Translations under genes and position numbers: made by a program
In this document: positions 1-21,525 of the stretch, piece by piece
How the letters are laid out: each line of letters begins with the position of its first letter
How positions within the stretch are numbered: position 1 is the first letter of the stretch
The notes under the pieces: generated by a model
Told to the model about the DNA's origin: nothing
Databases searched by the model: none
What the model saw: the letters and a program-made list of their open reading frames with translations, nothing else
Origin: Candidatus Saccharimonadota bacterium
Lineage (GTDB): Archaea > Nanohalarchaeota > Nanosalinia > Nanosalinales > Nanosalinaceae
NCBI RefSeq assembly: GCF_029232205.1
Contig: NZ_CP107255.1
Coordinates: forward strand, 270,001 to 302,000
DNA: 32,000 bases
Direction: 5' to 3'

Positions 1-2700
1 TTGATGTCTGTTATGTCTGCTTTAACTGTTACTGTGCTTCCTGGCGCTACTGGTGTTGATGGACTTGCTCTTACATTGGTTATACTTGGTGCTGTGTTGT
101 CAATCTTGAACTTCATGGTTTTTGTGTTGGTATTCCCTAGATCATCTTGGGCCTCTACTGTGATCTGGTAGTTTCCGTCTGCTTCGGTTGTTGTGTCTAG
201 GACTGCTCCGTATGAGGATCCTCCGTTTGTTCCTAGGTCGGTCCATGAAACAATAGTATCTGTTACAGTACCATCGCTATCGAGTTCCTCTATCTTGTAG
301 TCATAGGTTGTTGGATCTCCGTTTTCCAGAAGATCGTAAATTGTCTCGTTGAAGCTTGTCTGGCCCTGCACGTTTCCTGTTTTGATATTTCTGGCATCTA
401 CTGTTAGCTGGCCTGGGTTTTCTGTCAAGTCAATATTTCTGATCTGGTACAGGCCTGAGTATTTCTCGATTTCGCTTGCTGTCTCTTCAAATTCTCCTGG
501 ATCATTGATTGTTCCTGCTGAAGTGTCGCCATCCAGGTAACCTATTTGCAGGCTTCCCGGCTGTGCATCTGGGGTTGTTCCATCAAAGTTACCGTCTTTC
601 CACTGTGTCTCTGTTGTGAGGTTTTCAAGCAGGCCTCCCTGAGCTCCGTTGAGTTGTAGCGAGTCTAGTACTGGTGTGGAAGTTACCTGGTCTGTTGCGA
701 GTTTGACGGAAATTGTTGCTGTTGTACCGTCAAGGTCTGAAAGGTCTGCAGTCGTTACTCCTGATTTTCTGAGGTTTACTATAATAGTATCTCCTGTATC
801 TGTCTCTACTTTAACCCATGCCTGGTTGTAGATATTTTCTTCGTATGTTATCTCAGGAGGAGTGTTGTCAAACTGTGGTGTTACCTTTACAGTATTTCTA
901 TTTCCGGCCTTGTCCTCAGCAACCACATACACATCATGGTTTCCATCCTCAAAGTTCGTTGTATCAACATCTGCCGTCCAAGGCCCTCCACCTGTCAGCG
1001 ATCCTGACGTGTTTGTTCCATCTGCCTTTGTGATCTTGTACTCTGGGGAATTGGTATCTAGGTGGCTGTCGCTGATGCTTGCATCAATAGTGATTGTTCC
1101 TGTTACAGGGCTGCTTGGAGGCTGATTAATTGTGATACTTGGCTTTGTATCATCTGTATCTACCTGAACTGTCTGGTAGTTAATGTTGCCGAGTGTGTCA
1201 TTTGCGAATACCGCGAACTCCTGTGTCTGATTGACCTGTACATCACAGCTCCCGCTGAACTGAGAGTTGTCACAGTAGATCTCTCCTGTTGCTCCCGTCT
1301 TTGACCACACGTAGTTGTTGTTATCTTGGTCTGGGTCGTGATATCCTATCCAGTGTTGTCCACTGAACTGGCCTGTTATCAGGTCGTTTTCCTCTTGGTT
1401 CTCAATTGTTGCTAGATGATCTCCATTTGACTGGCAAGTATCTCTGGCATTTGGCCAGGTCATGTCGGAGGATGTGTTGTAGTATGTGCCATTATCTCTC
1501 TCACAGATTGCGGCCTCAGTTTCGCCTGTAGGATAATCATGCCAGACTCCTCCGCTTGATGTCAGCATCTTGACATAAGGTTGATCTCCTGCATCAGGCT
1601 GGCCGCTATCCCAGTTTTTGTAGTAGGAGGTGACTACTGTCTGGTCTAGGTGGCCTTCTCCGTCGTTGATGCTGCTTGAGATTGTTACTGTGTCGTTTGT
1701 GTTTACTACTGTGTCATTTGCTGATGTGCTTGTGACTGATGGAGGTGTTGCGTCTACTTCTACGGTTATTGTTCGGCTATCATTGAGGTTGCCGGCGTTG
1801 TCTCTGGCCCAGAATCTGTACATGTAGGATCCTGTGCTTCCTGGTGTGTTGACTGTACATTGGTTGAGGTCGGTTCCTGCATCGTTGAAAGTTGAGTTTC
1901 CACATACTGTGCTGCTATCTCTGAGCAGTTTTGTTGCGTATAGGCCACTTTCTAGATCTCTTGTTATGGCTGAGAAGTTGACTGGCTGGTTTGCTGCTGT
2001 TAGTGTTGTGTTTGCGTTTGTCTGTTCTACTATAGGGTTGTTTAGGTCGATTTTGTAGTCTCTTGTGATTTCTGCGTTGTGGCCGCTTTTTTCTGTTACT
2101 GTTACGTTGAAGGAGTTGTCTCCGCCTGCTGTTACTGTTGTTTGCCATTTATCTACTGTTGAGTTGTAGCTTAGTGGGTAGTCTGTTCCGTCTAATACTA
2201 CTTTTGCGTCTGATACTATTTCTTGTTCAGTTATTCCTGCTCCTGGATTAATTGATTCATTTGTGTTTGTTAGGGTGACGTTTACCTGGAAGTTTGCTCC
2301 GTTCTGGAAGTATCTTTCGCTTGGATATTCTACTGTTGCGATTCCTACTTTGTCTGGATCTAGGACTGTGTTTATCTGTAGTGATTTGTTTGTTAGTCCT
2401 GCATCGTCTTCTGCGAAGATTCTGTATGATCCGTCTGAGGCCAGGCTGTAAGCGTCTGAGGTGAATGTTCTCCAGTTTTCTGATGATCCTGCCTGTGTTG
2501 TAGACATTGCTTCTATACTGGTGTTTGTGGCGCCTGTCTGGTTGTATAGGGTAACCTGTGTCAGGTCTCCGTTTTCGTCTCTTACTTCTGCGCTGAACTC
2601 AACATCTGTTCCATCTGTGCTGACTATTACCTGTCTGCTTGATGTCTGGACATCTAGACTTAGTGGATCTCCCAGAGCGTTTCTAATTTCTGGGGTTACA
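1..2700 (-). other. Array of Ig-like beta-sandwich domains with recurrent A-x-D-x-A/L-G-N and D-x-T-x-P boundary signatures (contains the lectin-like insert listed next)
   Basis: Recurrent signatures: IFAEDDAGLTNKS; FWARDNAGNLNDSRTITVEVDATPPSV; VFANDTLGNINYQTVQVDTDDTKPSI; VVAEDKAGNRNTVKVTPQFDNTPPEI; VEAQDDLGNTNTKTMKFKIDNTAPSI. This is a common domain-end pattern of bacterial and archaeal surface Ig-like domains. Confidence 0.55.
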
Positions 2701-5700
2701 TTGGTCTGTCTGTAGTCAGGACATATCTCTGGTTCTTCGTAGGTGTCGTCTTCTTCGCCGTCGAAGTCACATCCCCCTGCATAATCATTTGGATAAACAG
2801 AGTGGTTTGCGTAGTATGCTTTGTTTGCCTCGTATTCTGGGTGTGAGGTGTTTCTGAAGTGATCGTAGTTTGAGGTGTTTGTTACAGGGTTGAAGTCTGG
2901 ATCTGAGGCCGCATCCACACTCGAATCTGCTGTTTCGTTCAACCAGTACTGCTCTGGTAGGTTGTCGAATCCACAGTCAGATGGTGCCACGAGCACGTTC
3001 TCTCCTTTACTTGGTTCACATTCTCCGTTTATGTCTACATCTCCATCCCCACTACCTACATCCCTGTAAACTGTAAATTCTCTTGATGTGGTGTTGAGAG
3101 GGAATGTTGCCTCGTAGTCGCCGTCCTGGCTTGTGGCCCAAATTTTGATAGTGTAATTCTTTCCGTATTCTTCATTTGAGAAGTTTATCTGGAATTGGGC
3201 CTCAGAGTCATCTCTGTATTCGTATTCTTCCTGCATCATGTCTTTGTTCTGTGAGTCTGTACAGTTGAGGCAGCTTGCGTGGTACTGGCCGTTGAAGCCG
3301 TTTGGTAGGCCTTGTGATGTGTTGAATTCTTTGAAGAATGCTGATACGTTCAGTAGGTCGTTGTCGTCGGTTCCTACTGGGTTCTGTGTTGGGCTGTCCC
3401 ATTCTGCTTCTATTCTTGCTCGGATGTCGTGTCTTTGTTTTACGATGTTTCCTCTTGGGCCTTCGTATTGTCCGTTGAGGTATCCTGGGCTCATTGACCA
3501 TTGGTCGAATGCTGCTGAGCAGTCTAGGAATCCTGTTCTGTATGAGTTTCTTGTGGAGTCGAAGTATTGTTTCTCTACTCCGATTGTTATGAAGTCGTCT
3601 CCTCCTAGGTTGTATCCGTTGCTTGATGGGTTGCCTGGTACTATCCATGTTTCAAGTTTGTTTCTTCCTCCGTGTGCTACTGCGTCGTCCCAGTTGATTA
3701 CTTCTCCTCCGTTTCTTTCTCCGCTGATTCCTCCTCCTTGGCATCCATCTTCGTCTAGGCTCCAGTAGATTCCGTCGAGTTCTGATTCTGTTAGCTGGTT
3801 GCCGTTCATGTCCTGTACTTTGGCTTTCATTGTGAAGTTGTCCATCTGGAAATCGTCTCTTCCGTCTACTGGTTCTTCTATTGTTACGTTGAGGGTTCCT
3901 CGTACTTCTATTGGGATTTCTGTAACTGGGTCTGGTTCGTAGCTGTCCTGTGGGTGGGATGCGTTGATTGTCAGGTTGTAGCTTCCTACTGGGAAGTTTC
4001 CTCTTGGATTCCATTCTGTGTGGGCCAGGTATTCGTCCCACCACTGGTTATCGTTGTCGTTCTGTGCGTTTTCGTATTCTTCTAGATCTACTTCTGCTGT
4101 TGCGATCTCTTCAGATATCTGGCTTCCGTCTGCGCTTGTTCCTGTTATCCAGAAGTGTACTGTTGAGTTTCCTACCTCATATTTTTGCTGTGATCCTTGG
4201 AATGGTGTTGTCACGTTGGCTGCGAGGTACATTGTTTCTGGGTGCTGCCATGGGCCTCCGTTACGGTATACTACGTATTTGTCAAGGTTCTGGTAGGTGT
4301 TGCCTCTTGAGTCTCTTTCCTGATTGTCTCTGTAGTATGCTGAGATGTTTAGGACGTCTGGGATTATCTGTGTCTCATTTACTTCGTTTGGTGAAACTGT
4401 TTCGAAGAAGTCGTCCATGTCGTTGTTGATTATTACTCCTGTCTCGTATGCTCCTGTGTCATATCCTGTGGTATCCCAGAGGTATGAGGCCTCTCCGCTT
4501 GAATCTGTCTGTACGTAGTGCTTGTTGCTGAGGTTTCCTATCCAGAACGTTACGTTGAATCCGGATTTATTGCTCAGTCCTGGGATGTCGATGGTTGTGT
4601 TCAGGTATTTTGTGCTGTCTGGTTCTGCGTATAGGCTTGGGGAGTAGTCTGCAATGCTTACTTTTCTTTTCGCGGTGGTATCTAGTACTCCTATGTCATC
4701 CTGGATGTACTGGTTTTGGGCTACTACGGTGATGTTTCCGTATCCGTATGCGTAGCTTGGGACAATCCATGAGCTTGATTTTGAAGAGCTTATTACTGTT
4801 AGTTCTGTGTCGTTATCCTGGTATCTCCAGGTGTAGCCGATGTCGAGGTTTCCTGCAGATCCTGTTGCTGTTGTGATGCTTGCTCGAAGCGTCTTTTCTT
4901 CGTTGTAGAATAATTCTCCTGTTGGAGGTTCTTCTATCGTTACGTTGGCCTCATCTTTCAGCACAAAGTTTTCTGAGTCATTCTCATTTAGAATTCTTGT
5001 ATCAATGTTGGTCTTGTTTTCGAGCTGGGCTGTTACTGAGTAGTCTCCTGGATTGTAGTTGCTGTCAAGTGTTACTGTGGCCGAGGCCTTTCCTTCTGAG
5101 TCTGTGTCCTTTTCTGCTACTTTGTTCCCGTTGATGTAAAATGTTACGTTGAAGTCTGTCCATGTTTCGTTGATGGTGGATTGGTAGGCCTCTTTGTTGT
5201 CTCCTGTGATTATCTGGCCTGAAAGGTTGTACTGGTAGTCTCCATCGTATGTTCTTACCTTGTCTGCTCCGCCTTCGGTCAGGTTCATCTTGATTACTCT
5301 GTCGATGACAATTGTGTTGATGTCTGAGGCCTGTGAGTAGTATGGATTTTCTACGTCAACTGTCAGGTCTGTGTCACTGGTAAAGTATTCTGGAATTGTC
5401 CATGATCCTGTTTCTCCTGAGTTAATTGTTTTTGTGGTGTCTGCGTCTTCTGCTGTCCAGATGATGTCTGATCCTGGGATGTTTCCTGCGTTTCCACAGC
5501 TGTCTGAAACATTTACGTCGAGGTTTACGTTATCTCCCTGCCTGTAACTTGTTCCACTGGTTGAACTGTTTAGTGGAGATGTAATATTGACACTGGCCTG
5601 TCCGTGAACCTCAATAGTGGAGGAGTCCTGTGTTTCATACAGATCGTACAGCTGGCTGTCAAGCGATGCGTTCACATCTACAGTGTATTCTCCAGGTGTA

Positions 5701-8700
5701 TCTTCACAGACTGTGTTCCAGTTGTAAGTTGCTTCTCCGCTGCTTCCCTCTACTGTATCTTCTGTAAGGCCTTCTATCTGGTATGTGGCATTGAAGTTGT
5801 TCTGCGAGATCTTCGATCCTGATGGATCCTGTAGCTCTGTTGTCAGATCTCCGCTGTTTGTTCTCTGGATTACTTTCCCATCTGAGATGAATTCAGGCCT
5901 TACTACATCTTTCACTAGGAAGTTGTTTGTTCCTGTTGCTGCATCATTGTAACCTGTTTTTGATACTGTTGCTGTCCATTGCTGCTGGCCTACGTTGATC
6001 AGGATGTTTGGATCGTAGTTACATGTGTATGTTCCTGTGTTTTCTGTTGTTGAGCATGTGTTTTCCGTAGGGGTTGAGTAGGAGACTGTTGCTCCGTCGA
6101 CTGTTTCTCCCAGCATGTTTGTCAGGTTTAGGCTTAGGTCTGTGGTTAGAGGGTATCCGTTGTTTCTTGTGACGGAGTTGTTTTCGTAGACACTTGCTGT
6201 TGGTAGAGAGGTTATGTTGAGTGTTCCTTTGACTTCTTTCTGGTATGTGTTGTTGAAGTCTCTGTAACCTGATTTCTCTAGTACTACTCTTACGCTGTTT
6301 GATCCTATGGAGGCCTCGTCTGGTATGTCGAAGCTTCCTGTGAATCCTTCTGAATTTGCTGTGCCTGTGTCCTTGGTATCTCCGTTCCATTTGAGTGTGT
6401 AGGATACGCTGTCTACTGCGTTCTTTCCATCTGTAATGTTAGAGATGTTGTAGTCAAGTTCTGTATCTCCGCTGGACTCATTGTATCTGTAAACTGGTGA
6501 GTCTGTGAGATTGATGTCTGCCTGAAGATTTCCGTTCACATTGAATGTGTCGTTTGATTTAATCTGGTGTACGTATCCTGATTTATTCACTGAGACATTC
6601 CAAGTGTATTCTCCGGCGTCCAGGCTGTTTGATGGGTTGAATGTACAGTTGTATACGTTAAGTGTCTGTGATTCTGTTTCGCATGTTCCTGCCGGAGTGT
6701 TGAAGTTAACGGTTGCTGAGGTGATGTTCTCTCCAAGTCTGTTTGTAACTTCTGCAACGAGTGTTATGTTATCGTCTTGCCTGTATACTGTTTCAGATTG
6801 GCTTGCTACTGATGTGTTAATGCTTCCTTTGACTTCAAGATCTTCGGTGTATGTGAAATCTGTGTAGTCTCCTTTCTGCAGTGTTATTTCCGCAGTGTGG
6901 TTGCCAAGTGTTTCGTCGTCAGGAACATCGAAGCTATCATTTGTACCATCAGAATCTACCTGGGCCTGTCTCTGCTGCTGTCCATCCCAGTCTATGGAGA
7001 ATGTTACATCGTTCAGCGAGTTGTTACCATCGTTAATGTTGTATACTGAGTATTCTACCGTGTTTTGGCCTGTATCATTGTTGTATCTTAGGAGAGGCCC
7101 GTTTACAATGTCGCTTGTTGCCTCTATAGGTGTTCTGACCTTGATGCTTCCGTTCTCATTTTCGTTGTATTCGAAGTAAGGCTTTGATACATCTATGCTC
7201 CAGTTGTAATCTCCTGCGCTAAGCGAGTCTGACGGATCAAATTCACAGGTGTATTCGTTTCCGTCTTCGTAGTTATTCTGGCAGAATCCTGAAGGTGTGT
7301 CGAATGTGACATCTGCAGTTATGTTGCTTCCTGTACTGTCTTTCAGCGTAGCTGTTAGGTTTATTGTATCATTCTGCGCATATACTACGTCACCTGATGT
7401 GAGAGCTCCATCTACTAGGCCATATACATCTACTGTTCTGGTAACTTTCTTTTCGTGGAAGTAAGGTTCGGTGAGTGTGACGTTGAGGTATCTTGGGCCT
7501 ACTTCTGCGCTTTCCTGCACGCTGTAGTCGCTGCTTACTTCGCTGGTGCTTGTTCCTGAGTTAATTCCTTCGAACTGTCCGAAGTCGACTGTGAAGTCTA
7601 CCGGTTGTTCTGTCCCGAATTGATCTTGAATGTTGCTGAAGTTGTATGTGAACGTATTCTGCGGATGATTTGTAGGCCTGTAGGCCTTATCTGGTACTGT
7701 GGTGCTTCCTACAGTTAGTTCTCCCATTAGTGTGAAATTGATGTTTTGACTGGTGTTGGCCTTGTAGTAGTCGTTTCCAGTCATTCTGATACTCCAGTTA
7801 TGGTCGCCTACAGAGTAGTTGAAACTGCTTAGTGTGTAGTTACAGTAGCCGCTGTTTGGAGTTGTGATTGCTCCGCTGTCGATCATTGATCCATCTATTC
7901 TGAACCGGCAGTAGGCCTCATTGGTATCCAGGCTTTCATTGTCTACGAGGTCTTTTACTTCTACTCCGAAGTCGGCTTCTTCCTCTGTCCTGTTGATTTT
8001 CAGATCTCTTCCCTGGCTGTAGATCAGGCCTACATTGTGTTTTTCTACTGTGAAGAATTTTTCTGAGCTGTTTGTTTCACCGTGGATTGCCTGTCCATCG
8101 TTGTAGACATCCTGGTACTCTACCTTGTATCTGATATCGCCTGTCCAGTTCTTGTAGGACTGTAGTTTGAAACTGATGTTTCCGGTTCCTGTTTTCTCTT
8201 GAGTCTTGATCCACTGGGCAGGGGTTTTGGCCCAGATTGATGCGTTGATTTGATCGTTTTCGTTATCTGAGAATGAAGTATTTATTGTGAAGTTTTCTCC
8301 CCAGTATCCCTGATCTGGTGTGTTGCTGAAGCTCTCTAGTACTGGTGCTGCGTTAGTTTTTCCTCCTACTCTGTAAATTGTTTCGTTGTGTTCTGAGTAT
8401 GTTGTTCCTACTTCTTCCTGCGTTACCTTGATGCTGTCAATTTTGCCGTTGCTGTTTTCATCTGATTTACATATCTGGAATGTTGCACCTTCCGCAGTGA
8501 TCTGCTCTTTCGAGCTGCATCCTGTGCTTGACGGAGTGATATCTGTGTATGTTCCATCCTGATCCCAGTCAACTTCGATGAATACGTTGTCTGTTATCTT
8601 GCTTTCATTGACTGCAATTGTTGTTGTGACATTTCTGAATGTTGCTGATGTTTTAGAAGTGTTTCTGAACACTGTCACGTTCTGGTATGATGGTGATCCT

Positions 8701-11700
8701 CTGCTGAAGTTTGATTTAGTCTGGACTACTGGTGTTGCGTTCATTCCTTCTTCGTACCAGATGTAGTCATCTGATCTGATTGGTGTATCTGGGTCTAGGA
8801 TGTATGCTAGGTCTCCTGGCAGAGGAAGGTATGGCGCGCTTATAGAGTACTTTCTACCGTTGAATACTACTTCCTGTGATCCTTCTGTTGAGAGAGTATC
8901 TGGAAGGTAAAGGCTTTCTACTCTTACTGGTACTGCAGGATTGCTGCTGTATGCTACCTGCAGTGCATTGAACATGATGTCTTGGCCTGTTGAAATGCCT
9001 GTTCTCTGGGCCCACTTTGTCACGTCTTCCTGCAGTGTGTACGTATCTGAGAAGTTGTATTCGTATTCTACTCTTGGTTCTGAGACTTCTACTCTTCCGC
9101 CGCTGTCGGATCCAAAGACAATGTCTATTGTACATGTCAAGTTGCTACACTGGCCGAGTTCATCGTTGAATTCGTCTGTGAAGTTGCTGCCTGTAAGGGT
9201 TGTTTCTCCGAAGAAGAGGCCTGTTTCTGAGTATTCGTTGTCTCCGTCGTTTCCTATGTTTACTGTCAGGTTTTCTGGTACTGAGAATAGGTTGATTATG
9301 TCGTTTTCTGAGGTTGTGACTCCTACTTCTTTTCCTGCTACTCTTCCGATCTCTCCTTTACTGAGTTCCTGGATTTGCGAGCTGTATTCGTATGTGTTGA
9401 TTGGTGTGCCATCAGGCTCCATAAGGAGTACTGTTCCATTCCTGAAACCTGCCAGAATGCTGCTTTCTGAGGCCTTCGTAATGTTTCCTGATTCAAGGCT
9501 TTCTACTTTGGAGCTGTAGCTTTTCTCCCAGATCTGTGTGCCGTCTGAGTCGATTGCAATTATTCTCTGGTCTTCTGTTCCTCCGATGATTTCTTTTCCT
9601 GTGCTTCCTCCGCTTACCTGTGTTGTTGTCAGTGATCTGAACCATGTGTCGCCTGTCGGAGGATATCTTTCGATCTGTGTTCCGGAAGAGTCAAGGATTG
9701 CAATCTTGTTCCTTGTTCCTACTACAATTTCGTTTCCTGTTGTCCCGCTTGATGTATCTCCGATTTCAACATCGGTTATCTCGCTGCCTGCAGTGTAATT
9801 CCAGATCTCGGATCCTGTACTGTTTAGTGCTCTTACTGTTCCACCGAACTTGGAAACAACTATTTCATCTCCTCTGTTGGATCCGAAGACGTCTGTTCTT
9901 AGCAGTAGGCCTTCGGAAAGTTTTTGACCCTGTGTGTATGTCGCCGTGCTTGAGCTTGAGTCAAGTAGCAGGTTGTAGCTGTCTGAGCAGCTTTCACAGT
10001 AATATGTAATGTTCTCGTTTTCGTTCAGGTCCTGACCGTCTACCTCTGTCCTTACCCATGTGTATTCGAGGCTGGTATTGGTCCATGTTCTTGCGGCAGA
10101 TCCTGTTCTTCTTTCGTAAGTGTAGTTCTCTGTCTTTACTTCTGAGGTCAGCCCTGAGTTCGTTGAGGTGCCGATGAAGGCGTTTGCCCCTGAGTCTGTG
10201 CTAAGTTCTACAGTGGAATCTGAGTTTAGATCTGATCCACTAACTTCTGTCTTTACCATCGAATAATTGACAGGTATCTGAGTGATTTTCCTCATGAGGC
10301 CTGTTTGATTATCTTCGATCAGATTGTAGCCTGTCGTACATGAGTCACATGTTACTGATAGCGGATTCTGGCCTAGTTCATCTGATGGTAGTTCTGTACC
10401 AGCCCAGTTGTATTCTGTAGATGTATTAGTCCAGACCTGCACCATGTAGTCTCCTGATGTTAGATTGCCTTGGTAGTATGAGTGGCCTGTCGTGCTGGAG
10501 TCCTTTATGAGGTTGAATGAACTGTCTGTAGCACAGGATTCACAGTTGTACGTAACGTTTCTTCCCTGGGCAATATCTGATTTGTTGACTTCTGTCTCTA
10601 CCCAGTCAAAGTCCAGCGATGAATCTGTGCTTACGTTGATCATGTAGTCAAATGGAAGTGGTTCGAGGGCATCGTCTGTAAGTATTTCGGAGTTACCTGA
10701 GGTGGAGTTGTCTCCAAACATTTCGTAGTAGCTACTGCTGTTACAGTTAGAACATTCGTAGAATATTACGTCGTTGTTCAGTGAAGACGTGTCAATTTGA
10801 GTGGAAACCCACTCTCCGCCAGTAGTATTTCCAGTAGTGTTACAGGAAGGTATCTTGCTAGTGTTAATCTGCTTGTTTACGTTTGTACCTGGACCTCCTA
10901 GCTGCAGGTCATAGGAAGCATTTCCTACCGAACACATTTTTGCTGAAACTGTTGCTTCCTGGGCCTGTAGACTTTCGACGTCGAGAGCGGTAAGATCAAA
11001 GTAAGGATCAGGATTTCCGCCTCCATTACATCCAATACATGTTGAGTTGTCGGCCTCTCCGTCATTGATAGATCTTACTACTGTGCTTGTCTCCTGGATC
11101 TCATCTGTGCTGATATTGTATCTATTTCCATTTATGACGAAGTATGGCTGAGATCCTTTCGATCCTTCATAGTTCAATGCTGTTCTGAGGTATACTTTCT
11201 CGGCCTCTATATCGGAAGGGATATTGTAGAATAGGTTGAATGTCGCCTGATTCTGTATGTCTGTCAGGTTTTCACCTGCTCCATCTTCTGCACTGTAGAT
11301 TTCCTTGGCTGTTTCGGTTACTTGCCCTGAGTCAATAGGGTAGGTTGTGCCATTCAACTCGAACTCTAGATCAGAAATCTCTCCACCGATACTGTTGAGT
11401 GCAACTGAGACATACGTGCTGGCATTATCCTGAATAGTAGTATTAACTGGAATCTGATTGTCAGAGACAGGCACTACAGATTCTCCATCTGAACTTGACC
11501 TGTTTACATTTTCACTAGTGGTACTGCTAACTTCTGAAAGATTTACATTGTAGGTGTTTCCATTCAGTTCTATCTGTGCAAGGCCTTCGGCTCCAGGTTC
11601 CTTTGCAAGAGGCAGTTCCAAGTAGTACTTCTCGGCTGAGAAACCTGGTTGCTCGACTTCCATAGTGAGATTTCTTCCATCGAATCGGGCCATACCATCT

Positions 11701-12941: not shown

Positions 12942-12964
12942 TAAGATATAGTTCCTTAAGCTAG

Positions 12965-12976
12965 TATAAAAAAATT
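12965..12976 (-). promoter_or_regulatory. Candidate TATA box for the giant gene
   Basis: The minus strand reads AATTTTTTTATA, centred about 27 nt upstream of the GTG start. That spacing fits an archaeal TATA-to-TSS distance and a leaderless or near-leaderless mRNA. Confidence 0.3.
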
Positions 12977-13019
12977 AGACTGCCGGCGAAAAACCGCCAG
13001 CGCTACTATTTTCTCCTCA

Positions 13020-13030
13020 TTAATTATAAA
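13020..13030 (+). promoter_or_regulatory. Candidate TATA box for the 1249-aa gene
   Basis: TTAATTATAAA is centred about 38 nt upstream of ATG 13064. A short AGGT lies 5 nt before the ATG. Confidence 0.3.
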
Positions 13031-13063
13031 CGACGCGAGTCAATTCAATATATAGTAGGTTTT

Positions 13064-16000
13064 ATGATTTTCAGCCGCTCTCTACCGACAAAAACAGCTT
13101 TATGGACTAAGGCCTGTATTTTGGTATTGCTGGTGTGTTTCACAGGGCTAGGTGCGGCTTCAGGATTTCAGAATCCTCAAGTATTCTATAATACTACGAC
13201 AGGTCAGGCCACTTTCACGGTAGAGAACGACACCGGCCTTGTGGATCCCGAAATCAGGATTTCATCTCCATATACTGACTGGAGTAGCCAGAATCTGACT
13301 TACTCATCTAACTCTACTTACTCTGTCAATGTGAGTTTTGACAGGCCTAATGGAATTTACTACTACAGATATGTCTCCCAAAATCATGGCTTTCCAGATA
13401 ATCACTTCACTTTTGTAGCAGGCACCAGAAATGATTCTGTCCTCGCGAAAGGCCTGAAGTTCCAGAATCAGAATTCCAGCTCCAGTTTGTGTAGTCCTTA
13501 CGGCGATTTCACGTGCGAGTACGAAAATTATCAGTCGGAGCGAATGATTTCCGCTGTTCAGTATTACAAGGCCACGGCCAATCAGACATATCTTGACAGG
13601 GCCTTAAACTTCTCTTCCAAGCCTTATGGTGAGACTTTTGCTTATCGTTGTCAGACATTTAACTGTGGTACCAAGATTTCAGACAGCGGTGTTCCATCTT
13701 CTGTCAGGCAGGGAGCGCTTATTGAGGGCCTCTGGCAGGTTTACAGTGTTTCAGATAACAGTTCTGTTAGGGATCTGGCCCTAGGCTATTCTCAGGGTTC
13801 TCCTCAGGAGTCCTGTAATGTCTGGAATTCGAGTTATAACTGTACGACTGGTTGGGGTCAGGGAAGAATGGCTCAGGGCTACCTAACTGCATACAGGGTA
13901 ACAGGCAACTCTACTTACTTGAATAAGGCGGAGAAACTTCTTGAGCTTGATTATAACCATTCTCTGTTTGGAAAGGCTCTTACAGAGGCCTATAAAATCA
14001 CTGGTGAAGATAGTTACCGGGAGAGAGCGAGAGAGCTGGCTAGAGAGGTCTCATGTGAGAACTGTTCTGATAATTTCATGAAGAAAGAGTTTTACTGGTC
14101 TGGATTTCTCAGTACCGAGGAGTATGGATACTATAGGAATGGTTATCAGGATATGAACTCTTCTTGCCTGCAGGATGTTAACAGCACCTGTTCTAATCCG
14201 CTGAATCAGAGCAGGGCCTCCAAGTACTTGCTAAAAAAGTACCTTGCTTTCCAGAATAATACTAAGGATGTTTCCAATGGCGGAGTGCTGGAGAAGGATC
14301 GTATAGGAGATCCTGTAGCTGTAACTGCTGATTTTGAGGGGATGGTACAGAATACTTCTGTCCAATTTCGCCAGGTTGGTGGCAACTGGACTAACTGTGA
14401 TATAGGGTGGTTTGGAGATTGTTTCTTAACTGAAAATAACTCTCTTGAGCAGGGAGTCTATGAATACCGTTTTAAGACTCAGAACCTTTCTTTCCCACAG
14501 AATGGGTCTCTCAGGTTTGCTTTGAACTCTAGAAATGATGATTTGTTGGAGGAGACGGAGGCCTTCGCATCTAGTGGGATGGAGACATTGCCTGAGGGCG
14601 AGTACTGTGATTTATCTGATGATCCTCTGGCCTGTGACAATGAGGGGTACCAGGCAAAGATGCTGTCTGGCTATACCCAGATATACAGTAGTTCTGACAG
14701 CTATCAGAGCAGGATTTATGAACTGTTTTACGGGCCTTATGTGGACTTCATTGGCGCCAGTGCGAACTGTGATCCTGTTGATGGTGATTATGATTGTGGT
14801 ACGGGAGGTTATCGTGAGGAGGCCTCGGAGGAGGCTGGTAGTTACAAGCAGGGTAATTTGATTGAGTCCATGTGGGATCTTTACTCCGAGACCGGTAACG
14901 GTACTGTTTATGTAAGAGCTGAGAATTATACGCGAGGTAGTGCGGAGGACTGCGATGTATGGGCCGGTGATTTCAGCTGTGATTCTTCCAAGGGCCAGGC
15001 CGCGATGATTGGTGGTTATTCAGAGGCCTACAGGATTACAGGCAATCAGACCTACAGAGATATCGCAGTCAATCTCTCTGAGGCTGGAGTTCAGGGCTCT
15101 CAGAACAAAGTTCTCGCAGGTGCTCTGTGGGAGGCCTCAGTTCTATACAATAATACTAATTACAGCGATCAGGCATTGAACTGGACGGAGAGCTTGATCA
15201 ATTCCTGTACCTCTGGTGAGTGCACTGCAGATGAGTATACTTCTTCTGTGGCCTTTGCACATGATACCTTTGTATATGGAAATAATGATTCTTATTCTGA
15301 TTATTATCAGGGCTTGGTGGATAATACTACTGGTTCGGGCCAGTGTGGGCCTTGGAAGGAGGATTATGCATGTTCTGCTCCTGATACGCAGGGTATGTTT
15401 ATGGAGACTTTGCAGACAGCGGCTTATTCGGTTCCTATGAAGTTGAAAACTGTTGATAGCTTTAATGTGTCCAGCACAAGTTTGCAGCCTCAGAGTTCTA
15501 CAGATCTAGTTTGTTCTACTAGAAACGTTCTTCAGAATACTACTTTGCGAAATACAACTTTCTCACTGGATTATCCTGGCTCTGCATTTGCGCTTTCGGG
15601 TAATCAGACTCAGGATGTCGGCAATATCCCTTATCAGAACTCCTCGGAGGCCAGCTGGTCTCTTACCGCTGAGCAGTCAGGAACTTTTACTGTTTCATGT
15701 GTGATTTCGTCGGTTAATGGCCTGGATCAGGTGGAGGAGGTTGAGATAGCTGTTTCCGAGCCTGAGCCGGAAGGCGGTGGAGGTTCTGGTGGTCAGGAAG
15801 AGGACTCTGGAGGAGCTATCATTCTGCCGGAGCCTGAACCCGAGCCGGAATACTTGAACTATTCTCTCGAGGACTTCAGAAATATCTCAGATGTTTCCGA
15901 TTATGGCCTGGATGCTGAGAATTATACCTATGAGAGAGCTTCCTGTGGTTCAGCTACAAGAACTGTCTGGCCTTCTAACTCCACACTCGATGTTAATTAC

Positions 16001-16813
16001 TGTGGGGATCTTACTCCGGTAGTCATAGATGAACAGAACAGTACTCTGGTAGAATTATTTAATCAGAGTGTTTCTTTACAGTCTAATTACAGTCTTAACC
16101 TAAGTAATTATTCTGCGCCGGCCTTGCTTGAAAGAGAGTTGAAGGTTCTGGATGTAAACAGTACTGTTGATTCCATTGATCTTTCAGGTAATGGAAGTGC
16201 TCTTGTATCCTCAAAGCTAAACAGGCCTGTTATGTGTACGGTTTCCAGAAATGGCCGTGAGGTTTACTCGGAATTTACATCTGATTTAAGCTATGAGGTA
16301 GAATTGGAGGATGGCCTGAACAGTATTTCTGTTGATTGTGGTGGGGAGGTTGAGAACTTTAATGTCGAGTATGACTCAGAGGTTCCACGTGAGGATGAAG
16401 GTTCCAGCAGGTTTATTGTTGCGGCATTGCTGAGCCTGGTTGTAGCAACCCTGTTTTTCAGAAGCCCTATCTTATTTGTCAAGAACTCTCTGTTGTTCAG
16501 ATTTTATTCAAGAAGATTCAGACAGTCTATTTACCATGAGAGTCCGGCAAAGGCCCTAGAGTACTATAATGAGATGAAGAACTACTCTAATCATGTGTCT
16601 GAGGATCTTTTCTATTCTGAGATCAGTTTGATGAGAGGCGTCCAGTTGTATCTTGCTATGGACTTGATTAAGGAAGGTATTGAGGATGATATTGTCAATG
16701 CGTTCGGTGAGGATATTGAGGGTATTGTCAACAGGTTTATGGAGAGGTCTGATAATGATCATTTGCAGAAGATGTTGAATAGTAAGCTTGAGGAGATCAA
16801 GGGCAGTGCATAG
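13064..16813 (+). CDS. Sequon-rich type I membrane surface protein (1249 aa) with an internally duplicated ectodomain
   Basis: Track ORF. Signal-like N-terminus: KTALWTKACILVLLVCFTGLGAASG. The ectodomain has two homologous halves (about aa 35-400 and 405-790), then an Ig-like region, a PEPEPE/GGGGSGG linker (15755-15850), more beta-rich sequence, and one TM helix RFIVAALLSLVVATLFF (16409-16459). A helical cytoplasmic tail of about 115 aa follows. Confidence 0.85.
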   Translation: MIFSRSLPTKTALWTKACILVLLVCFTGLGAASGFQNPQVFYNTTTGQATFTVENDTGLVDPEIRISSPYTDWSSQNLTYSSNSTYSVNVSFDRPNGIYYYRYVSQNHGFPDNHFTFVAGTRNDSVLAKGLKFQNQNSSSSLCSPYGDFTCEYENYQSERMISAVQYYKATANQTYLDRALNFSSKPYGETFAYRCQTFNCGTKISDSGVPSSVRQGALIEGLWQVYSVSDNSSVRDLALGYSQGSPQESCNVWNSSYNCTTGWGQGRMAQGYLTAYRVTGNSTYLNKAEKLLELDYNHSLFGKALTEAYKITGEDSYRERARELAREVSCENCSDNFMKKEFYWSGFLSTEEYGYYRNGYQDMNSSCLQDVNSTCSNPLNQSRASKYLLKKYLAFQNNTKDVSNGGVLEKDRIGDPVAVTADFEGMVQNTSVQFRQVGGNWTNCDIGWFGDCFLTENNSLEQGVYEYRFKTQNLSFPQNGSLRFALNSRNDDLLEETEAFASSGMETLPEGEYCDLSDDPLACDNEGYQAKMLSGYTQIYSSSDSYQSRIYELFYGPYVDFIGASANCDPVDGDYDCGTGGYREEASEEAGSYKQGNLIESMWDLYSETGNGTVYVRAENYTRGSAEDCDVWAGDFSCDSSKGQAAMIGGYSEAYRITGNQTYRDIAVNLSEAGVQGSQNKVLAGALWEASVLYNNTNYSDQALNWTESLINSCTSGECTADEYTSSVAFAHDTFVYGNNDSYSDYYQGLVDNTTGSGQCGPWKEDYACSAPDTQGMFMETLQTAAYSVPMKLKTVDSFNVSSTSLQPQSSTDLVCSTRNVLQNTTLRNTTFSLDYPGSAFALSGNQTQDVGNIPYQNSSEASWSLTAEQSGTFTVSCVISSVNGLDQVEEVEIAVSEPEPEGGGGSGGQEEDSGGAIILPEPEPEPEYLNYSLEDFRNISDVSDYGLDAENYTYERASCGSATRTVWPSNSTLDVNYCGDLTPVVIDEQNSTLVELFNQSVSLQSNYSLNLSNYSAPALLERELKVLDVNSTVDSIDLSGNGSALVSSKLNRPVMCTVSRNGREVYSEFTSDLSYEVELEDGLNSISVDCGGEVENFNVEYDSEVPREDEGSSRFIVAALLSLVVATLFFRSPILFVKNSLLFRFYSRRFRQSIYHESPAKALEYYNEMKNYSNHVSEDLFYSEISLMRGVQLYLAMDLIKEGIEDDIVNAFGEDIEGIVNRFMERSDNDHLQKMLNSKLEEIKGSA

Positions 16814-16852
16814 GCCGAAACATGTTTAACAATCGTGGCCCGTTGACTTTCT

Positions 16853-17833
16853 ATGGGATGGTATGCGCTAGAGGAAGTTGAGGAAGCAGCTAAACGAACT
16901 CGTGAACTACTGTTGCCTTTTGATTGGAGGCTATGGGCCAGAATTGCAATTATGGCTTTCTTTGTAGGAGGTTTTACTTTCCCAGGATTTGGAGGCAACT
17001 ATGCTGGCTCTCCGGATTCTGGTATGCATGACCAGGATATGGCTGCTAACACAGACTTTGGCCTAGCGAATATAGATGGTCCAGGGCTGCCTGATATGAG
17101 GGTTGAACTGGCAAATGTAGACGGTCTAGGTCTAACCAATATTGTTTTGCTTGGTATAATTTTCGGAGTACTAGGAATAGGCCTTCTGTTTGGAGTTCTG
17201 AGATCTGTATTCGGTTTTGTATACTATCAATCATTGCTGGATGACGATGTGAGGATTAGGAGCAATTTCGTCAAACACTTTTTCAAAGGCCTCAAGCTTT
17301 TCGTGTTTGAGGTATCGGCCGTATTTGCATTCCTAGCTATTGGAGGTCTTCTCGTTCTTCCCGTATTTGTTAATCCATTTTTCGCTATCTTCACTATCTT
17401 ATTTGCCATTCCATTGATAATGGCAGCGGCTGTATTCTTCCAGCTCACTACCGACTTTATTCCTCTGCTAATGATAGATTCTGACAGAGGAGTGATGGCC
17501 TCGTGGGCAAAGCTTTACGATATGATTGTTGATGAGTGGAGGCAAGTAGGCCTTTACGTTATTGCAAAAGTGGTTCTTGGAGTACTATTCCAGATAGCTG
17601 TGGCATCTGCAGGACTGCTTCTAGGTCTTCTATTGATACTGCCTATAGGTCTGGTTGCGCTGGTCTTTTACTGGATTGCTCAGCCACTGGCAATTGTGGC
17701 AGCGGTAGCTGGAATTATCCTGTGGTTGGCTTCAGTTATTTACTTCCTGAATGGGCCTGCTACAACATTTTTCAGATATTATTCTATCCTGGTCTACGAT
17801 GATTTGACTCAGGAAGAGGCCGTTGAGGGTTAG
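16853..17833 (+). CDS. Polytopic membrane protein (326 aa), function unknown; probably co-transcribed with the 1249-aa gene
   Basis: Track ORF, 39 nt after the upstream stop. There are several long hydrophobic segments (IAIMAFFVGGFTF, IVLLGIIFGVLGIGLLFGVL, VFAFLAIGGLLVLPVFV, FAIFTILFAIPLIMAAAVFF, VLGVLFQIAVASAGLLLGLLLILPIGLVALVFYWI, AIVAAVAGIILWLASVIYF). The soluble N-terminus is MGWYALEEVEEAAKRTRELLLPFDWRLW. Confidence 0.7.
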   Translation: MGWYALEEVEEAAKRTRELLLPFDWRLWARIAIMAFFVGGFTFPGFGGNYAGSPDSGMHDQDMAANTDFGLANIDGPGLPDMRVELANVDGLGLTNIVLLGIIFGVLGIGLLFGVLRSVFGFVYYQSLLDDDVRIRSNFVKHFFKGLKLFVFEVSAVFAFLAIGGLLVLPVFVNPFFAIFTILFAIPLIMAAAVFFQLTTDFIPLLMIDSDRGVMASWAKLYDMIVDEWRQVGLYVIAKVVLGVLFQIAVASAGLLLGLLLILPIGLVALVFYWIAQPLAIVAAVAGIILWLASVIYFLNGPATTFFRYYSILVYDDLTQEEAVEG

Positions 17834-20855: not shown

Positions 20856-21242
20856 TTATTCTTCTAGAATTTTTACTGGTTCTCCGTTCCGGGTGATGTC
20901 CTGGCTGATCGTGTTTAGGTAGCTTTGCTGTACGTTATCGATCATTTCTCTGTCTGATTCATCTAGGTTGCCGTATGCTGTCTCTATGGCGCTCTTGAAT
21001 TTTTCTCGTCTCTCTTGCAGAATGTTTCTCACTTCGGAGATCTCTATTTTTTCTCCGGTACTGGAAAAGCCTTTCAGTTCGTCTTCAGTATCTTCAAGGT
21101 ATTGCTGAACCTCGTATTCTATTATATCGTATAGTTCATGATCTTCTTCTATTTCTGTACCGATTTGGGTCAGTGAAACTGCTTTTTGAGGAGTCATCTC
21201 GTCCTCTAAAAGGTGATAAGCAGCTTTCTCGAAATTATCCAT
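20856..21242 (-). CDS. Acidic hypothetical protein (128 aa)
   Basis: Track ORF, co-oriented between L24e and aIF5B. I recognise no motif. Confidence 0.5.
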   Translation of the reverse strand: MDNFEKAAYHLLEDEMTPQKAVSLTQIGTEIEEDHELYDIIEYEVQQYLEDTEDELKGFSSTGEKIEISEVRNILQERREKFKSAIETAYGNLDESDREMIDNVQQSYLNTISQDITRNGEPVKILEE

Positions 21243-21365
21243 AATATGTCTCTATTCCTAAGTGATAAAAATTTACACTGGGGGAAAAATGAGGGGTCAT
21301 GAAGAAATAGGTTTTGTAAGGATGAAGAATAGGAGAAAATGAAGAATAAGGGTTGAGAACTGGTT

Positions 21366-21521: not shown

Positions 21522-21525
21522 TGTT

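What the first reader, a model, noticed from the sequence alone, without database searches (positions are those of the whole stretch)
1..17833. Divergently transcribed surface-protein island: giant adhesin, duplicated 1249-aa glycoprotein and a polytopic membrane protein
The giant gene and the 1249-aa gene point away from each other across only 122 bp (12942-13063). Each has its own TATA-like box, which invites co-regulation. The 326-aa multi-pass membrane protein follows 39 nt after the 1249-aa gene. All three products are predicted envelope proteins, and together they use 56 percent of a window otherwise filled with core informational genes. In an organism with this degree of gene compaction, such an investment suggests a dedicated cell-cell or host-attachment apparatus. 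In that model the lectin, propeller and Ig modules do the recognition. The type I protein's cytoplasmic tail and the polytopic partner do the anchoring or signalling. This is a hypothesis; none of the three has a function I can assign.
Basis: inference. Interest (0 to 1): 0.8.

Follow-up and report, generated by a model that had tools for sequence, protein, structure and literature searches.

The report
Giant surface protein's conserved partner gene
The giant gene is the already published 8,880-residue 'SPEARE-like' host-contact protein of a nanohaloarchaeon. What appears unreported is that the 1249-residue membrane protein beside it is a conserved, divergently transcribed partner built from two sugar-enzyme-like barrels, while the third gene is only an incidental neighbour.

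Summary
The window comes from Candidatus Nanohalovita haloferacivicina BNXNv, a DPANN nanohaloarchaeon. The described anatomy is real. One frame is open over 1-12941(-), a 122-bp spacer follows, then a 1249-aa type I membrane protein with an internal tandem duplication, then a 326-aa polytopic protein 39 nt later.

The giant gene is BNXNv_0298, 8,880 aa, published in 2023 as a SPEARE-like giant surface protein.

The 1249-aa gene is a conserved partner of such giants. In 11 further loci from Nanohaloarchaeota and other DPANN MAGs, a homologous giant gene lies divergently upstream of the homologue. The flanking genes differ between these loci.

The partner carries two modules, each a beta-sandwich plus an (alpha/alpha)6 barrel. 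The barrel is GH76/GH9-like in fold but has no conserved catalytic acids. A stalk, one transmembrane helix and a conserved cytoplasmic tail follow.

The 326-aa protein (Pfam DUF7544) belongs to the housekeeping backbone. It keeps its own promoter motif and its Nre/aIF5B neighbours in close relatives that lack the pair.

So the proposed triad is really a pair. My best reading is that the partner recognises host surface glycans as an accessory of the giant. This is inferred, not shown.

The parts
1..12941 (-). 5' 4313 codons of the giant SPEARE-like surface protein gene (BNXNv_0298, 8,880 aa in full). It continues beyond the left end of the window.
   Evidence: Open frame with no stop. Collinear orthologues at 27-43% identity over 2,600-3,300 aa in L001-L007, L014, L016, L018, L019, L021, L022. 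Identity, length and name from PMC10266531.
12837..12941 (-). GTG start and N-terminal signal/anchor of the giant (residues 1-35)
   Evidence: Hydrophobic segment 10-35. The N-terminal motif ITSRLR directly after the start is shared with relatives (ITKSTRLRS in L002/L016), which have stop codons just upstream. TATA-like box at the distance typical for this genome.
9987..11900 (-). Region of the giant holding six of its seven C-x-x-C motifs (residues 348-985)
   Evidence: Regex on the translation. No family assigned; only weak Pfam matches.
9312..9872 (-). Beta-propeller-like region of the giant (residues ~1024-1210)
   Evidence: Weak Pfam matches to Beta-prop_ACSF4 and Beta-prop_BBS7, E 3e-4 to 1e-3, below cut-off. 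PQQ-like propellers are reported for the orthologue SVXNc_0300.
1290..1466 (-). C-type lectin-like segment of the giant (residues 3826-3884)
   Evidence: Pfam PF00059: E 6e-7 for the whole translation, 1e-10 for the piece, model positions 2-63 of 107.
96..275 (-). Ig-like domain (Big_3_3 / Big_13 / PKD-like) of the giant (residues ~4223-4282)
   Evidence: Pfam matches with E 6e-6 to 2e-3, just below the cut-offs.
12942..13063 (.). 122-bp divergent spacer holding both promoters
   Evidence: Sequence. 34% G+C and motif positions. Only trivial palindromes found.
12964..12976 (-). TATA-like box of the giant gene (AATTTTTTTATAC on the minus strand, -35..-23 from the GTG)
   Evidence: Same distance as the TATA-like motifs of seven other genes of the window. 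Inferred promoter, not mapped.
13020..13030 (+). TATA-like box of the 1249-aa gene (TTAATTATAAA, -44..-34 from the ATG)
   Evidence: Inferred.
13064..16813 (+). Partner gene: 1249-aa type I membrane glycoprotein, the conserved divergent neighbour of SPEARE-type giant genes
13169..14287 (+). Module 1 (residues 36-408): beta-sandwich plus 12-helix barrel
   Evidence: Internal duplication. 14-row module alignment A4. Secondary structure in the full-length model.
14288..15433 (+). Module 2 (residues 409-790): beta-sandwich plus (alpha/alpha)6 barrel
   Evidence: AlphaFold2 model with pLDDT 84 and pTM 0.89. Foldseek matches to GH76, GH9, AGE epimerases, GH127 and SSV19 chain 7xdi_F.
15446..16378 (+). 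Stalk: Ig-like beta-sandwich (about residues 795-900), Gly/Ser/Glu/Pro linker, two further beta domains
   Evidence: Full-length model. pLDDT is 70-87 for the first beta-sandwich and 63-79 for the last; the linker is disordered.
16400..16483 (+). Single transmembrane helix (residues 1113-1140)
   Evidence: Hydropathy. Nearly all full-length family members have one TM at the equivalent place.
16484..16810 (+). Conserved helical cytoplasmic tail (residues 1141-1249; motif LMRGxxLYLxxDLxxEG)
   Evidence: Alignment A1. No Pfam match. Predicted helical at low confidence.
16822..16830 (+). Own promoter motif of the DUF7544 gene (ATGTTTAAC, -31..-23)
   Evidence: The same motif (ATGTTTTAAC or CTGTTTTAAC) lies at about the same distance (-34..-25) in L009-L012, where the upstream neighbour is a helicase gene.
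16853..17833 (+). DUF7544 polytopic membrane protein. This is a backbone gene and not part of the module.
   Evidence: Pfam PF24400, E 4e-57, full length. Homologues and their contexts. No solved structure.

Best explanation
The locus is a two-gene surface module plus one unrelated neighbour.

(1) The minus-strand gene is the 5' half of BNXNv_0298. This is the SPEARE-like giant protein of Ca. Nanohalovita haloferacivicina. It has a signal peptide and a very long glycosylated, disulfide-rich ectodomain of propeller, Ig-like and lectin-like modules. According to the literature it ends in a TM helix and a HerA/VirB4-like ATPase outside this window.

(2) The 1249-aa gene is its conserved, divergently transcribed partner. 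From the N-terminus it has a signal peptide and two tandem modules, each a beta-sandwich plus an (alpha/alpha)6 barrel stiffened by five short disulfide loops. A beta-sandwich stalk, one TM helix and a conserved cytoplasmic helical tail follow. The pair travels together between different genomic contexts, is missing together, and evolves much faster than the surrounding core genes. All of this fits a shared role at the host-cell interface.

Most likely mechanism (inferred): the two barrels recognise, and may trim, glycans on the host Haloferax envelope. This would resemble the GH76-like domain of the SSV19 tailspike on its archaeal host. The tail keeps the partner in the symbiont membrane next to the giant's membrane-embedded end. 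Because no acidic residue is invariant in about 120 modules, I favour binding over classical hydrolysis.

(3) The 326-aa DUF7544 protein is a housekeeping membrane protein of unknown function with its own promoter. It is adjacent only because the pair sits at this point of the backbone in this genome.
For: Identity:
- P0001 is 100% identical to the 1249-aa protein and lies on a 1,046,959-bp contig of Ca. Nanohalovita haloferacivicina.
- The paper gives the same chromosome size and describes BNXNv_0298.

Pair conservation:
- A homologous giant ORF lies divergently upstream of the partner homologue in L001/2, L003, L004/5, L006, L007, L013, L014, L016, L018, L019, and L021, L022.
- These include MAGs labelled Aenigmatarchaeota and unclassified archaeon.
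- In Ca. Nanohalococcus occultus, SVXNc_0301 (= P0043, profile E 7e-224) is the locus tag next to SPEARE SVXNc_0300. Both are transcribed, at 1,270 and 13,131 RPKM.

Different flanks:
- DUF7544 in the window.
- RpoK-PAC2 in most relatives.
- A KaiC/RadA-like ATPase gene in L008.
- The cassette lies between PAC2 and Nop10 in SVXNc.

Absence at the site in close relatives: none of the seven partner homologues found in the 5.8-billion-protein search lies on the 915,886-bp L009 chromosome, although that genome's backbone is 84-88% identical to the window. The site itself is checked directly in L009 and L011.

Changed arrangement, still clustered: in L017 the tandem module heads a 4155-aa protein. 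It lies after an NHL + HerA-type giant C-terminus and a HerA/TrwB ATPase gene.

Fast evolution: giant 27-43% and partner 24-34% identity, against 60-75% for aIF2alpha, PAC2, GINS and primase in the same loci.

Fold:
- Module model pLDDT 84, pTM 0.89, with 12 helices.
- Foldseek TM 0.51-0.59 to GH76 mannanases, plus GH9 (Ig + barrel), AGE epimerases, GH127/146, and SSV19 chain 7xdi_F at TM 0.50.
- Weak Pfam GH127 and C5-epimerase matches.

Family:
- 96 cluster representatives among 1.84 billion, 67 of them with E<1e-30.
- Nearly all full-length members have signal + 2 modules + one C-terminal TM.

SSV19 precedent: virions hydrolyse host N-glycan, and VP4 carries an endo-mannanase-like domain (PMC12042106).

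DUF7544 as backbone.
Against: - No experiment or expression data exist for this organism. Co-regulation from the spacer is inferred from geometry and motif positions only.
- Glycan binding rests on fold similarity with TM about 0.5-0.6 and 10-15% identity. (alpha/alpha)6 barrels also occur in proteins that do not handle sugars, such as the complement thioester domain, which is also among the matches.
- I could not inspect model coordinates, so I do not know whether the conserved Gln/Arg/Trp residues line the barrel funnel.
- Most pair-bearing loci are nanohaloarchaeal and collinear. Part of the conservation may therefore be inherited synteny.
- The taxonomic labels of the non-nanohaloarchaeal MAGs were not checked.
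- The orientation of SVXNc_0301 relative to SVXNc_0300 was not verified.
- The absence of the partner from the L009 genome rests on a word-seeded search.
- The pattern-based scans cannot show absence in other SPEARE-bearing genomes such as Ca. Nanohaloarchaeum antarcticus.
Confidence: 0.6

Rival explanations
1. All three genes form one dedicated attachment apparatus, in which the DUF7544 polytopic protein anchors or signals for the other two.
For: The genes are adjacent, with 39 nt between the 1249-aa gene and DUF7544 on the same strand. All three products are predicted membrane or surface proteins.
Against: DUF7544 is next to the pair in none of the related loci. It keeps its position beside Nre-aIF5B and its promoter motif in L009-L012, where no pair is present. 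The family occurs in Halobacteria and a Methanofollis genome. The protein has no sequons and no Cys, unlike the two ectodomain proteins.
Confidence: 0.05
2. The adjacency of the giant and the 1249-aa gene is inherited gene order without functional coupling. The 1249-aa protein would be an independent surface glycoprotein or a nutrient-acquiring glycosidase.
For: Nanohaloarchaeal genomes are highly collinear (PMC10266531). Automatic annotations call family members YyaL or rhamnogalacturonyl hydrolase YesR. Nanohaloarchaea live on polysaccharide-derived sugars (paper abstracts).
Against: The pair stays together while its flanks change in at least four ways. It is present in MAGs labelled outside Nanohaloarchaeota at 26-29% identity. 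No partner homologue was found on the chromosome of a close backbone relative. In L017 the order changes but the module remains beside SPEARE-type ATPase genes. There are no invariant catalytic acids. A membrane anchor plus a conserved cytoplasmic tail is unusual for a secreted digestive enzyme.
Confidence: 0.15
3. The partner is an active glycoside hydrolase or lyase that cuts host S-layer or envelope glycans to clear the way for the giant. This would be a depolymerase like a phage or SSV19 tailspike.
For: The closest folds are GH76 endo-mannanases, GH9, GH127/146 and a polysaccharide lyase. SSV19 virions, whose VP4 carries a GH76-like domain, hydrolyse host N-glycan. Acidic residues are conserved at about 80% at E154/E527, next to the first conserved Gln.
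Against: No Asp or Glu is invariant in about 120 modules. The window's own module 1 has Q, T, N and S at several of the moderately conserved acidic positions. In the only sequence alignment obtained, which is weak (E 0.18), the GH76 Asp-Asp dyad aligns to variable positions. There is no match to a GH76 Pfam model.
Confidence: 0.15
4. The partner binds the giant protein itself rather than the host. It could serve as an export or folding chaperone, a membrane dock for the giant's free N-terminus, or a regulator of its ATPase through the cytoplasmic tail.
For: Strict genomic coupling and divergent promoters. A conserved cytoplasmic tail of unknown fold. Both proteins are anchored in the same membrane (for the giant's C-terminal TM). 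Both diverge quickly in the same set of loci.
Against: No evidence of any kind bears on an interaction. The barrels have the carbohydrate-enzyme fold and the most conserved residues are Gln, Arg, Trp and Tyr, as in sugar sites. This reading does not exclude host glycan binding as well.
Confidence: 0.15

Closest known systems
SPEARE / giant membrane-anchored extracellular proteins of Nanohaloarchaeota (Hamm et al. 2019, PMC6642349; Reva et al. 2023, PMC10266531)
   Same: The minus-strand gene is one of them. It is BNXNv_0298 itself, and it is collinear (about 41% identity over 3,300 aa) with a giant gene of Nanopetramus SG9, the genome in which SPEARE proteins were described. It has a signal peptide and a huge adhesion-type ectodomain.
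   Different: The published descriptions cover the giant and the genes downstream of it (a VirB4/HerA-like ATPase and a 'proteasome activator'). I found no mention of the divergent upstream partner. Here the partner is the most consistently linked neighbour. The 'proteasome activator' (PAC2) turns out to be part of the conserved backbone.
GH76 alpha-1,6-endo-mannanases, and the GH76-like domain of the SSV19 tailspike VP4
   Same: (alpha/alpha)6 barrel of similar size, TM 0.5-0.59. In SSV19 such a domain sits on a host-contact structure of an archaeal parasite, and the virion cleaves host N-glycan.
   Different: 10-15% identity and no Pfam GH76 match. The Asp-Asp dyad is not conserved. Each barrel carries five family-specific disulfide loops, four of which are followed by a conserved Gln. 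The barrel is duplicated in tandem, each copy behind a beta-sandwich, on a membrane-anchored stalk.
GH9 enzymes with an N-terminal Ig-like domain (e.g. CelD 1clc, PBPRA0520 5dgr)
   Same: Two-domain unit of a beta-sandwich followed by an (alpha/alpha)6 barrel.
   Different: TM is only 0.3-0.47 over longer targets. No sequence relationship was detected. The GH9 catalytic residues were not assessed.
GH127 (Pfam PF07944) and YyaL / COG1331, the names given by automatic annotation
   Same: Helical-hairpin repeats of the six-hairpin type. The whole-protein Pfam score is 35.7 bits, above the 24.9 cut-off.
   Different: No single stretch passes on its own. There is no thioredoxin domain as in YyaL. 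The Foldseek TM to HypBA1 is 0.25-0.44. The names should not be read as function.
Pfam DUF7544 (related to DUF4013)
   Same: The 326-aa protein matches over its full length, E 4e-57. 16 of 16 homologues match.
   Different: Nothing; it is a plain member. Its function is unknown and there is no solved structure.

Membership tests
SPEARE-type giant surface protein | Very long ORF (thousands of residues) | tested here: met
   4313 codons are open and the ORF runs off the window. The full length is 8,880 aa according to PMC10266531.
SPEARE-type giant surface protein | Sequence homology to giants in genomes where SPEARE proteins were described | tested here: met
   41% identity over 3,321 aa to the giant ORF of Nanohaloarchaea archaeon SG9 (L016). 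27-43% to the others. I did not verify which of the SG9 SPEARE genes L016 holds.
SPEARE-type giant surface protein | Mostly extracytoplasmic, with adhesion-type domains | tested here: met
   Signal segment, 144 sequons and paired Cys. Lectin_C E 1e-10, with weak Ig-like and propeller matches.
SPEARE-type giant surface protein | C-terminal TM helix followed by a cytoplasmic HerA/VirB4-like (formerly 'restriction enzyme-like') ATPase | not testable with these tools
   That part lies outside the window, and the source contig could not be fetched. It is reported in PMC10266531.
GH76 alpha-mannanase | (alpha/alpha)6 barrel fold | tested here: met
   Model pLDDT 84 with 12 helices. TM 0.51-0.59 to 4v1s, 6y8f, 6shd, 4c1s.
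GH76 alpha-mannanase | Conserved catalytic Asp-Asp dyad | tested here: not met
   In the profile alignment to 6y8f (E 0.18, weak) the dyad aligns to positions after the C-x-N-C motif that vary (DN, EE, DE, QE, SG, RN). No acidic column is invariant in about 120 modules.
GH76 alpha-mannanase | Significant match to the family's sequence model | tested here: not met
   No GH76 family appears among the Pfam matches at E<=0.01. PDB profile search E 0.18.
GH127 (PF07944) | Domain-level match to the catalytic-domain model | tested here: inconclusive
   Whole-protein 35.7 bits (cut-off 24.9) but zero stretches pass on their own. The best stretch covers 78 of 376 model positions.
GH127 (PF07944) | Catalytic Cys with a Cys3-Glu zinc site (from my own knowledge of HypBA1) | not tested
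   No residue-level structural alignment was available. The family's conserved Cys occur in short-range pairs typical of disulfides.
YyaL / COG1331 | N-terminal thioredoxin-like domain before the six-hairpin domain | tested here: not met
   No thioredoxin match. The N-terminal domain is predicted as a beta-sandwich.
Pfam DUF7544 | Full-length match above the gathering score | tested here: met
   194 bits against a cut-off of 27; residues 3-321 on model positions 1-298 of 302.
C-type lectin domain (PF00059) | Match above the gathering score over the whole domain | tested here: inconclusive
   30.5-42.4 bits against a cut-off of 22.6, but only model positions 2-63 of 107 are covered.

The most novel reading that the evidence does not exclude
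SPEARE-type giant proteins of DPANN archaea never work alone. They would form an obligatory two-component host-contact system with this tandem-(alpha/alpha)6 membrane protein. The partner would read or edit the host's surface glycans and so set host specificity. Its cytoplasmic tail would couple that recognition to the giant's HerA/VirB4-like ATPase. The family would then be a new class of glycan-recognition module derived from glycosidase barrels.
Probability: 0.25. Interest if true: 0.7.

Novelty: new variant of a known kind. Interest (0 to 1): 0.5.

Why it matters
How DPANN nano-archaea recognise and hold on to their hosts is an open question. The SPEARE giants are the leading candidates, but they are too large and repetitive to handle experimentally.

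A conserved partner of about 1,250 aa offers a tractable entry point. It has two compact modules that fold confidently in prediction, so it can be expressed, tested on haloarchaeal glycans, localised, and used as bait.

The synteny analysis also corrects the picture of the locus in two ways:
- PAC2, the 'proteasome activator' proposed in the literature as functionally linked to the giant, belongs to the conserved housekeeping backbone.
- The DUF7544 membrane protein does too.

Finally, the partner family gives a simple genomic marker for SPEARE-type cassettes in fragmentary MAGs, where the giant gene itself is often broken or left uncalled, as in L001.

Tried and rejected
- Exact look-ups of the window's own proteins found no contig, so the rest of the giant gene could not be read.
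- BLASTP of the 1249-aa protein against itself did not report the duplication. Comparing the two halves did.
- The 7-sequence alignment was too divergent for the genome scan; a 5-sequence subset worked.
- The metagenome scan added only two new loci.
- The first representative-library job failed: first on query length, then on profile length. The module alignment A4 worked.
- The third homologous-protein search, with A4, returned nothing and was wasted.
- The full-length AlphaFold2 model was poor (pLDDT 56), so its Foldseek matches were used only as a hint.
- L023, a distant 1929-aa member, sits on a contig too short to show its neighbours.
- The module profile finds nothing inside the giant itself.
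- No relatives were found on viral contigs, so a virus-borne cassette was rejected.
- The window has no tRNA and no Rfam family.
- G+C is flat at 42-48% across the window, so there is no compositional sign of recent transfer.
- The spacer holds no notable inverted repeat that would suggest an operator.
- I considered a terpenoid-cyclase-like 'QW' reading of the Gln/Trp motifs and dropped it for lack of any supporting match.

Full report
**1. Source and observation**

The 1249-aa protein is 100% identical to a protein of Candidatus Nanohalovita haloferacivicina on a 1,046,959-bp contig. This matches the chromosome size published for strain BNXNv. The other genes of the window are archaeal core genes: Nre, aIF5B, L7Ae, S2, enolase, RpoK, PAC2, Nop10, aIF2alpha, S27e, L44e, GINS, primase and PCNA.

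- One frame is open for 4313 codons on the minus strand from 12941 to the window edge.
- A 122-bp spacer follows.
- A 1249-aa ORF lies at 13064-16813 and a 326-aa ORF at 16853-17833.
- Hydropathy gives a signal segment on the giant. It gives a signal plus one C-terminal TM and a tail of about 110 aa on the 1249-aa protein. It gives several TM segments on the 326-aa protein.
- The two ectodomains carry 3.3 and 4.3 N-glycosylation sequons per 100 aa, against 0.43 in the cytoplasmic proteins of the window. Their cysteines come in short-range pairs.
- The three genes occupy 55% of the window.
- 'Duplicated' is an internal tandem duplication, 27% identity, E 1e-24.

**2. The giant gene is already known**

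Reva et al. 2023 (PMC10266531) describe BNXNv_0298 (8,880 aa, 26,643 bp) as a giant membrane-anchored extracellular protein of the SPEARE type first named by Hamm et al. 2019 (PMC6642349). According to that paper it has:
- a signal peptide, an Ig-like domain and two PQQ-like beta-propellers;
- about 75 Ig-like domains;
- a C-terminal TM helix and a cytoplasmic VirB4/TraG (HerA)-like ATPase;
- a second such ATPase gene downstream.

The window holds only the N-terminal 4313 residues. My Pfam scans agree as far as they go. A C-type lectin-like segment matches with E 1e-10 over part of the model, and the propeller and Ig-like matches are weak.

**3. Synteny: a pair, not a triad**

The 1249-aa family is rare. 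Seven proteins appeared in a word-seeded search of 5.8 billion. A profile search of 1.84 billion representatives gave 96, of which 67 have E<1e-30.

Every contig that extends upstream of a homologue with the partner-type architecture shows a long ORF on the opposite strand, starting about 100-200 bp away:
- L001/2, L003, L004/5, L006, L007;
- L013, L014, L016 (Nanopetramus SG9), L018, L019;
- L021, L022.

BLASTP shows these ORFs are collinear orthologues of the window's giant, 27-43% identity over up to 3,300 aa. L015 has a divergent 640-aa partial ORF whose homology I could not show.

In Ca. Nanohalococcus occultus the family member P0043 is SVXNc_0301. That is the locus tag next to SPEARE SVXNc_0300, and both are transcribed, at 1,270 and 13,131 RPKM.

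The flanks differ:
- DUF7544 follows in the window.
- RpoK-PAC2-Nop10-aIF2alpha follows in most relatives.
- A KaiC/RadA-like ATPase gene follows in L008.
- In SVXNc the cassette sits between PAC2 (0296) and Nop10 (0302), which are neighbours elsewhere.

In a MAG labelled Woesearchaeota (L017) the order changes. The tandem module heads a 4155-aa protein. It lies downstream of an NHL-repeat giant fragment ending in a HerA/TrwB-type ATPase, a second such ATPase gene, and an unknown gene.

DUF7544 behaves differently. Its homologues are common in nanohaloarchaea and also occur in Halobacteria and a Methanofollis genome. In L009-L012 it lies between an XPD-like helicase gene and Nre-aIF5B, followed by the same ribosomal-protein, enolase, RpoK and PAC2 block as in the window. 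L009 and L011 are the window's closest backbone relatives in the comparison (aIF2alpha 88-93%, PAC2 84-87% identity), yet they have no pair at this site. None of the seven partner homologues lies on the 915,886-bp L009 chromosome. A promoter-like motif lies about 23-34 nt before the DUF7544 start. It reads ATGTTTAAC in the window and ATGTTTTAAC or CTGTTTTAAC in L009-L012, and in the window it sits inside the 39-nt gap. DUF7544 is therefore a backbone gene with its own promoter.

**4. Promoters**

In seven other genes of the window a TTTTWAWA-like motif lies about 22-38 nt before the start codon. This is the geometry expected for leaderless or short-leader archaeal transcripts (that expectation is established knowledge; the positions are).
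- The giant gene has TTTTTTTATAC at -35..-23. This also supports the GTG start, as does the shared N-terminal motif in relatives.
- The partner gene has TTAATTATAAA at -44..-34.
- No operator-like repeat was found in the spacer.

Co-regulation is plausible but unproven.

**5. What the partner is**

The full-length model was poor (pLDDT 56) but outlined the architecture:
- beta-sandwich, 12 helices, beta-sandwich, 12 helices;
- an Ig-like beta-sandwich, a disordered acidic linker, two more beta domains;
- a TM helix and a helical tail.

Splitting the seven family members into 14 modules (A4) gave a confident model of module 2 (pLDDT 84, pTM 0.89). Foldseek against the PDB returns almost only (alpha/alpha)6 carbohydrate-active proteins:
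- GH76 endo-mannanases, TM 0.51-0.59;
- GH9 enzymes with an N-terminal Ig-like domain;
- AGE-family epimerases;
- GH127/GH146 and a polysaccharide lyase.

The exceptions among the 50 listed are the complement C5 thioester domain and SSV19 tail chain 7xdi_F (TM 0.50). The SSV19 tailspike VP4 is reported to contain an endo-mannanase-like domain, and SSV19 virions hydrolyse the host N-glycan (PMC12042106). I assume, but did not verify, that chain F is VP4.

Across about 120 modules from 72 proteins the most conserved residues are five cysteine pairs (143/151, 196/201, 251/260, 331/334 and 368/376 in module-1 numbering). Also conserved are four glutamines that follow four of these loops (157, 216, 266, 382), plus R215, W254 and several Tyr. 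No acidic residue is invariant; the best is E154/E527 at about 80%. In the only alignment obtained, which is weak, the GH76 Asp-Asp dyad aligns to variable positions.

The architecture of signal, two modules, a variable stalk, one TM and a cytoplasmic tail is nearly universal among full-length members of the family. The module is absent from the window portion of the giant and from viral contigs.

**6. Mechanism**

Shown:
- the identity of the giant;
- conservation and mobility of the pair;
- the independence of DUF7544;
- the barrel fold;
- the conserved disulfide/Gln signature;
- fast divergence of both surface proteins relative to the backbone.

Inferred:
- The partner acts with the giant at the host interface.
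- It recognises host glycans, with binding favoured over hydrolysis because catalytic acids are not conserved.
- Its tail positions it near the giant's membrane end.

The rivals are pure synteny, an active depolymerase, and a chaperone or dock for the giant. Each is listed with the test that would separate it.

**7. Novelty and verdict**

The giant is already published for this genome. The triad hypothesis fails on its own criterion.

What appears new is the conserved divergent partner family and its tandem-barrel structure. No paper in the searchable library mentions SVXNc_0301, BNXNv_0299 or DUF7544, and the SPEARE passages I read in five papers do not mention an upstream partner.

This extends a known system rather than defining a new kind. 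Interest is moderate. It is useful to people working on DPANN-host contact and is directly testable.

Noticed in passing
window 13064-13132: The database copy of the 1249-aa protein (P0001) is 1226 aa, so it starts 23 codons downstream at a GTG. The ATG at 13064 gives a normal signal peptide (basic n-region plus hydrophobic core) that aligns with the N-termini of the homologues. The annotated start is therefore probably too short.
   Followed up: partly
window 25491-27357 (RpoK, PAC2, Nop10, aIF2alpha); SVXNc_0296 in PMC10266531 Table S1: The 'proteasome activator' near the SPEARE gene, which the 2023 paper singles out as possibly acting on host proteins, is PAC2. PAC2 belongs to the RpoK-PAC2-Nop10-aIF2alpha block, which is also present in loci without any giant gene at the site (L009, L011). 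Its proximity to the giant is most simply incidental.
   Followed up: partly
window 9987-11900 (-) and 3261-3272 (-): The giant carries seven C-x-x-C motifs: six between residues 348 and 985, each in a similar sequence context, and one at residue 3224. All 44 cysteines occur in short-range pairs. No known family was assigned to these units.
   Followed up: no
window 14054-14068 (+) and family alignments A1/A4: The partner's conserved C-x-N-C-S/T motif embeds an N-glycosylation sequon inside a C-x-x-C loop. It is conserved in module 1 of most homologues, and a similar N-C-S/T occurs in module 2 of several.
   Followed up: no
L017 1-22129: In a MAG labelled Woesearchaeota the tandem barrel module is fused to the N-terminus of a 4155-aa protein. 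It lies co-directionally after an NHL-repeat protein ending in a HerA/TrwB-type ATPase, a second HerA-type ATPase (705 aa) and an unknown 705-aa protein. This is a rearranged version of the cassette.
   Followed up: partly
L001 1-9819: The JGI gene calls on this contig list only short ORFs where a 3,273-codon open frame (the giant) exists. Giant genes can be missed or fragmented in automatic annotation of metagenomes.
   Followed up: partly
window 20856-21637: ORF 21206-21637 (143 aa) is spurious: it overlaps the real L24e (21372-21521) and S28e (21529-21702) genes. ORF 20856-21242 (128 aa, no Pfam match) occupies the slot where relative L009 has a GH1 glycosidase gene.
   Followed up: partly
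window 17830-17833: The DUF7544 gene and the convergent Nre gene (17830-19008, minus strand) overlap by 4 nt at their 3' ends. In relatives L009-L012 the two genes are 7-10 nt apart.
   Followed up: no
P0062, P0134-P0136 (JGI) and P0001 (NCBI): Automatic names for family members disagree ('rhamnogalacturonyl hydrolase YesR', 'putative conserved protein YyaL', 'Ig-like domain-containing protein'). All appear to stem from the generic six-hairpin or Ig-like resemblance.
   Followed up: no
window 22444-23247 (-): This 267-aa ORF has no Pfam match. Only its C-terminal ~96 residues resemble (78% identity) the 301-aa unknown protein at the same position in L011. The N-terminal part seems to have diverged or been replaced.
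   Followed up: no
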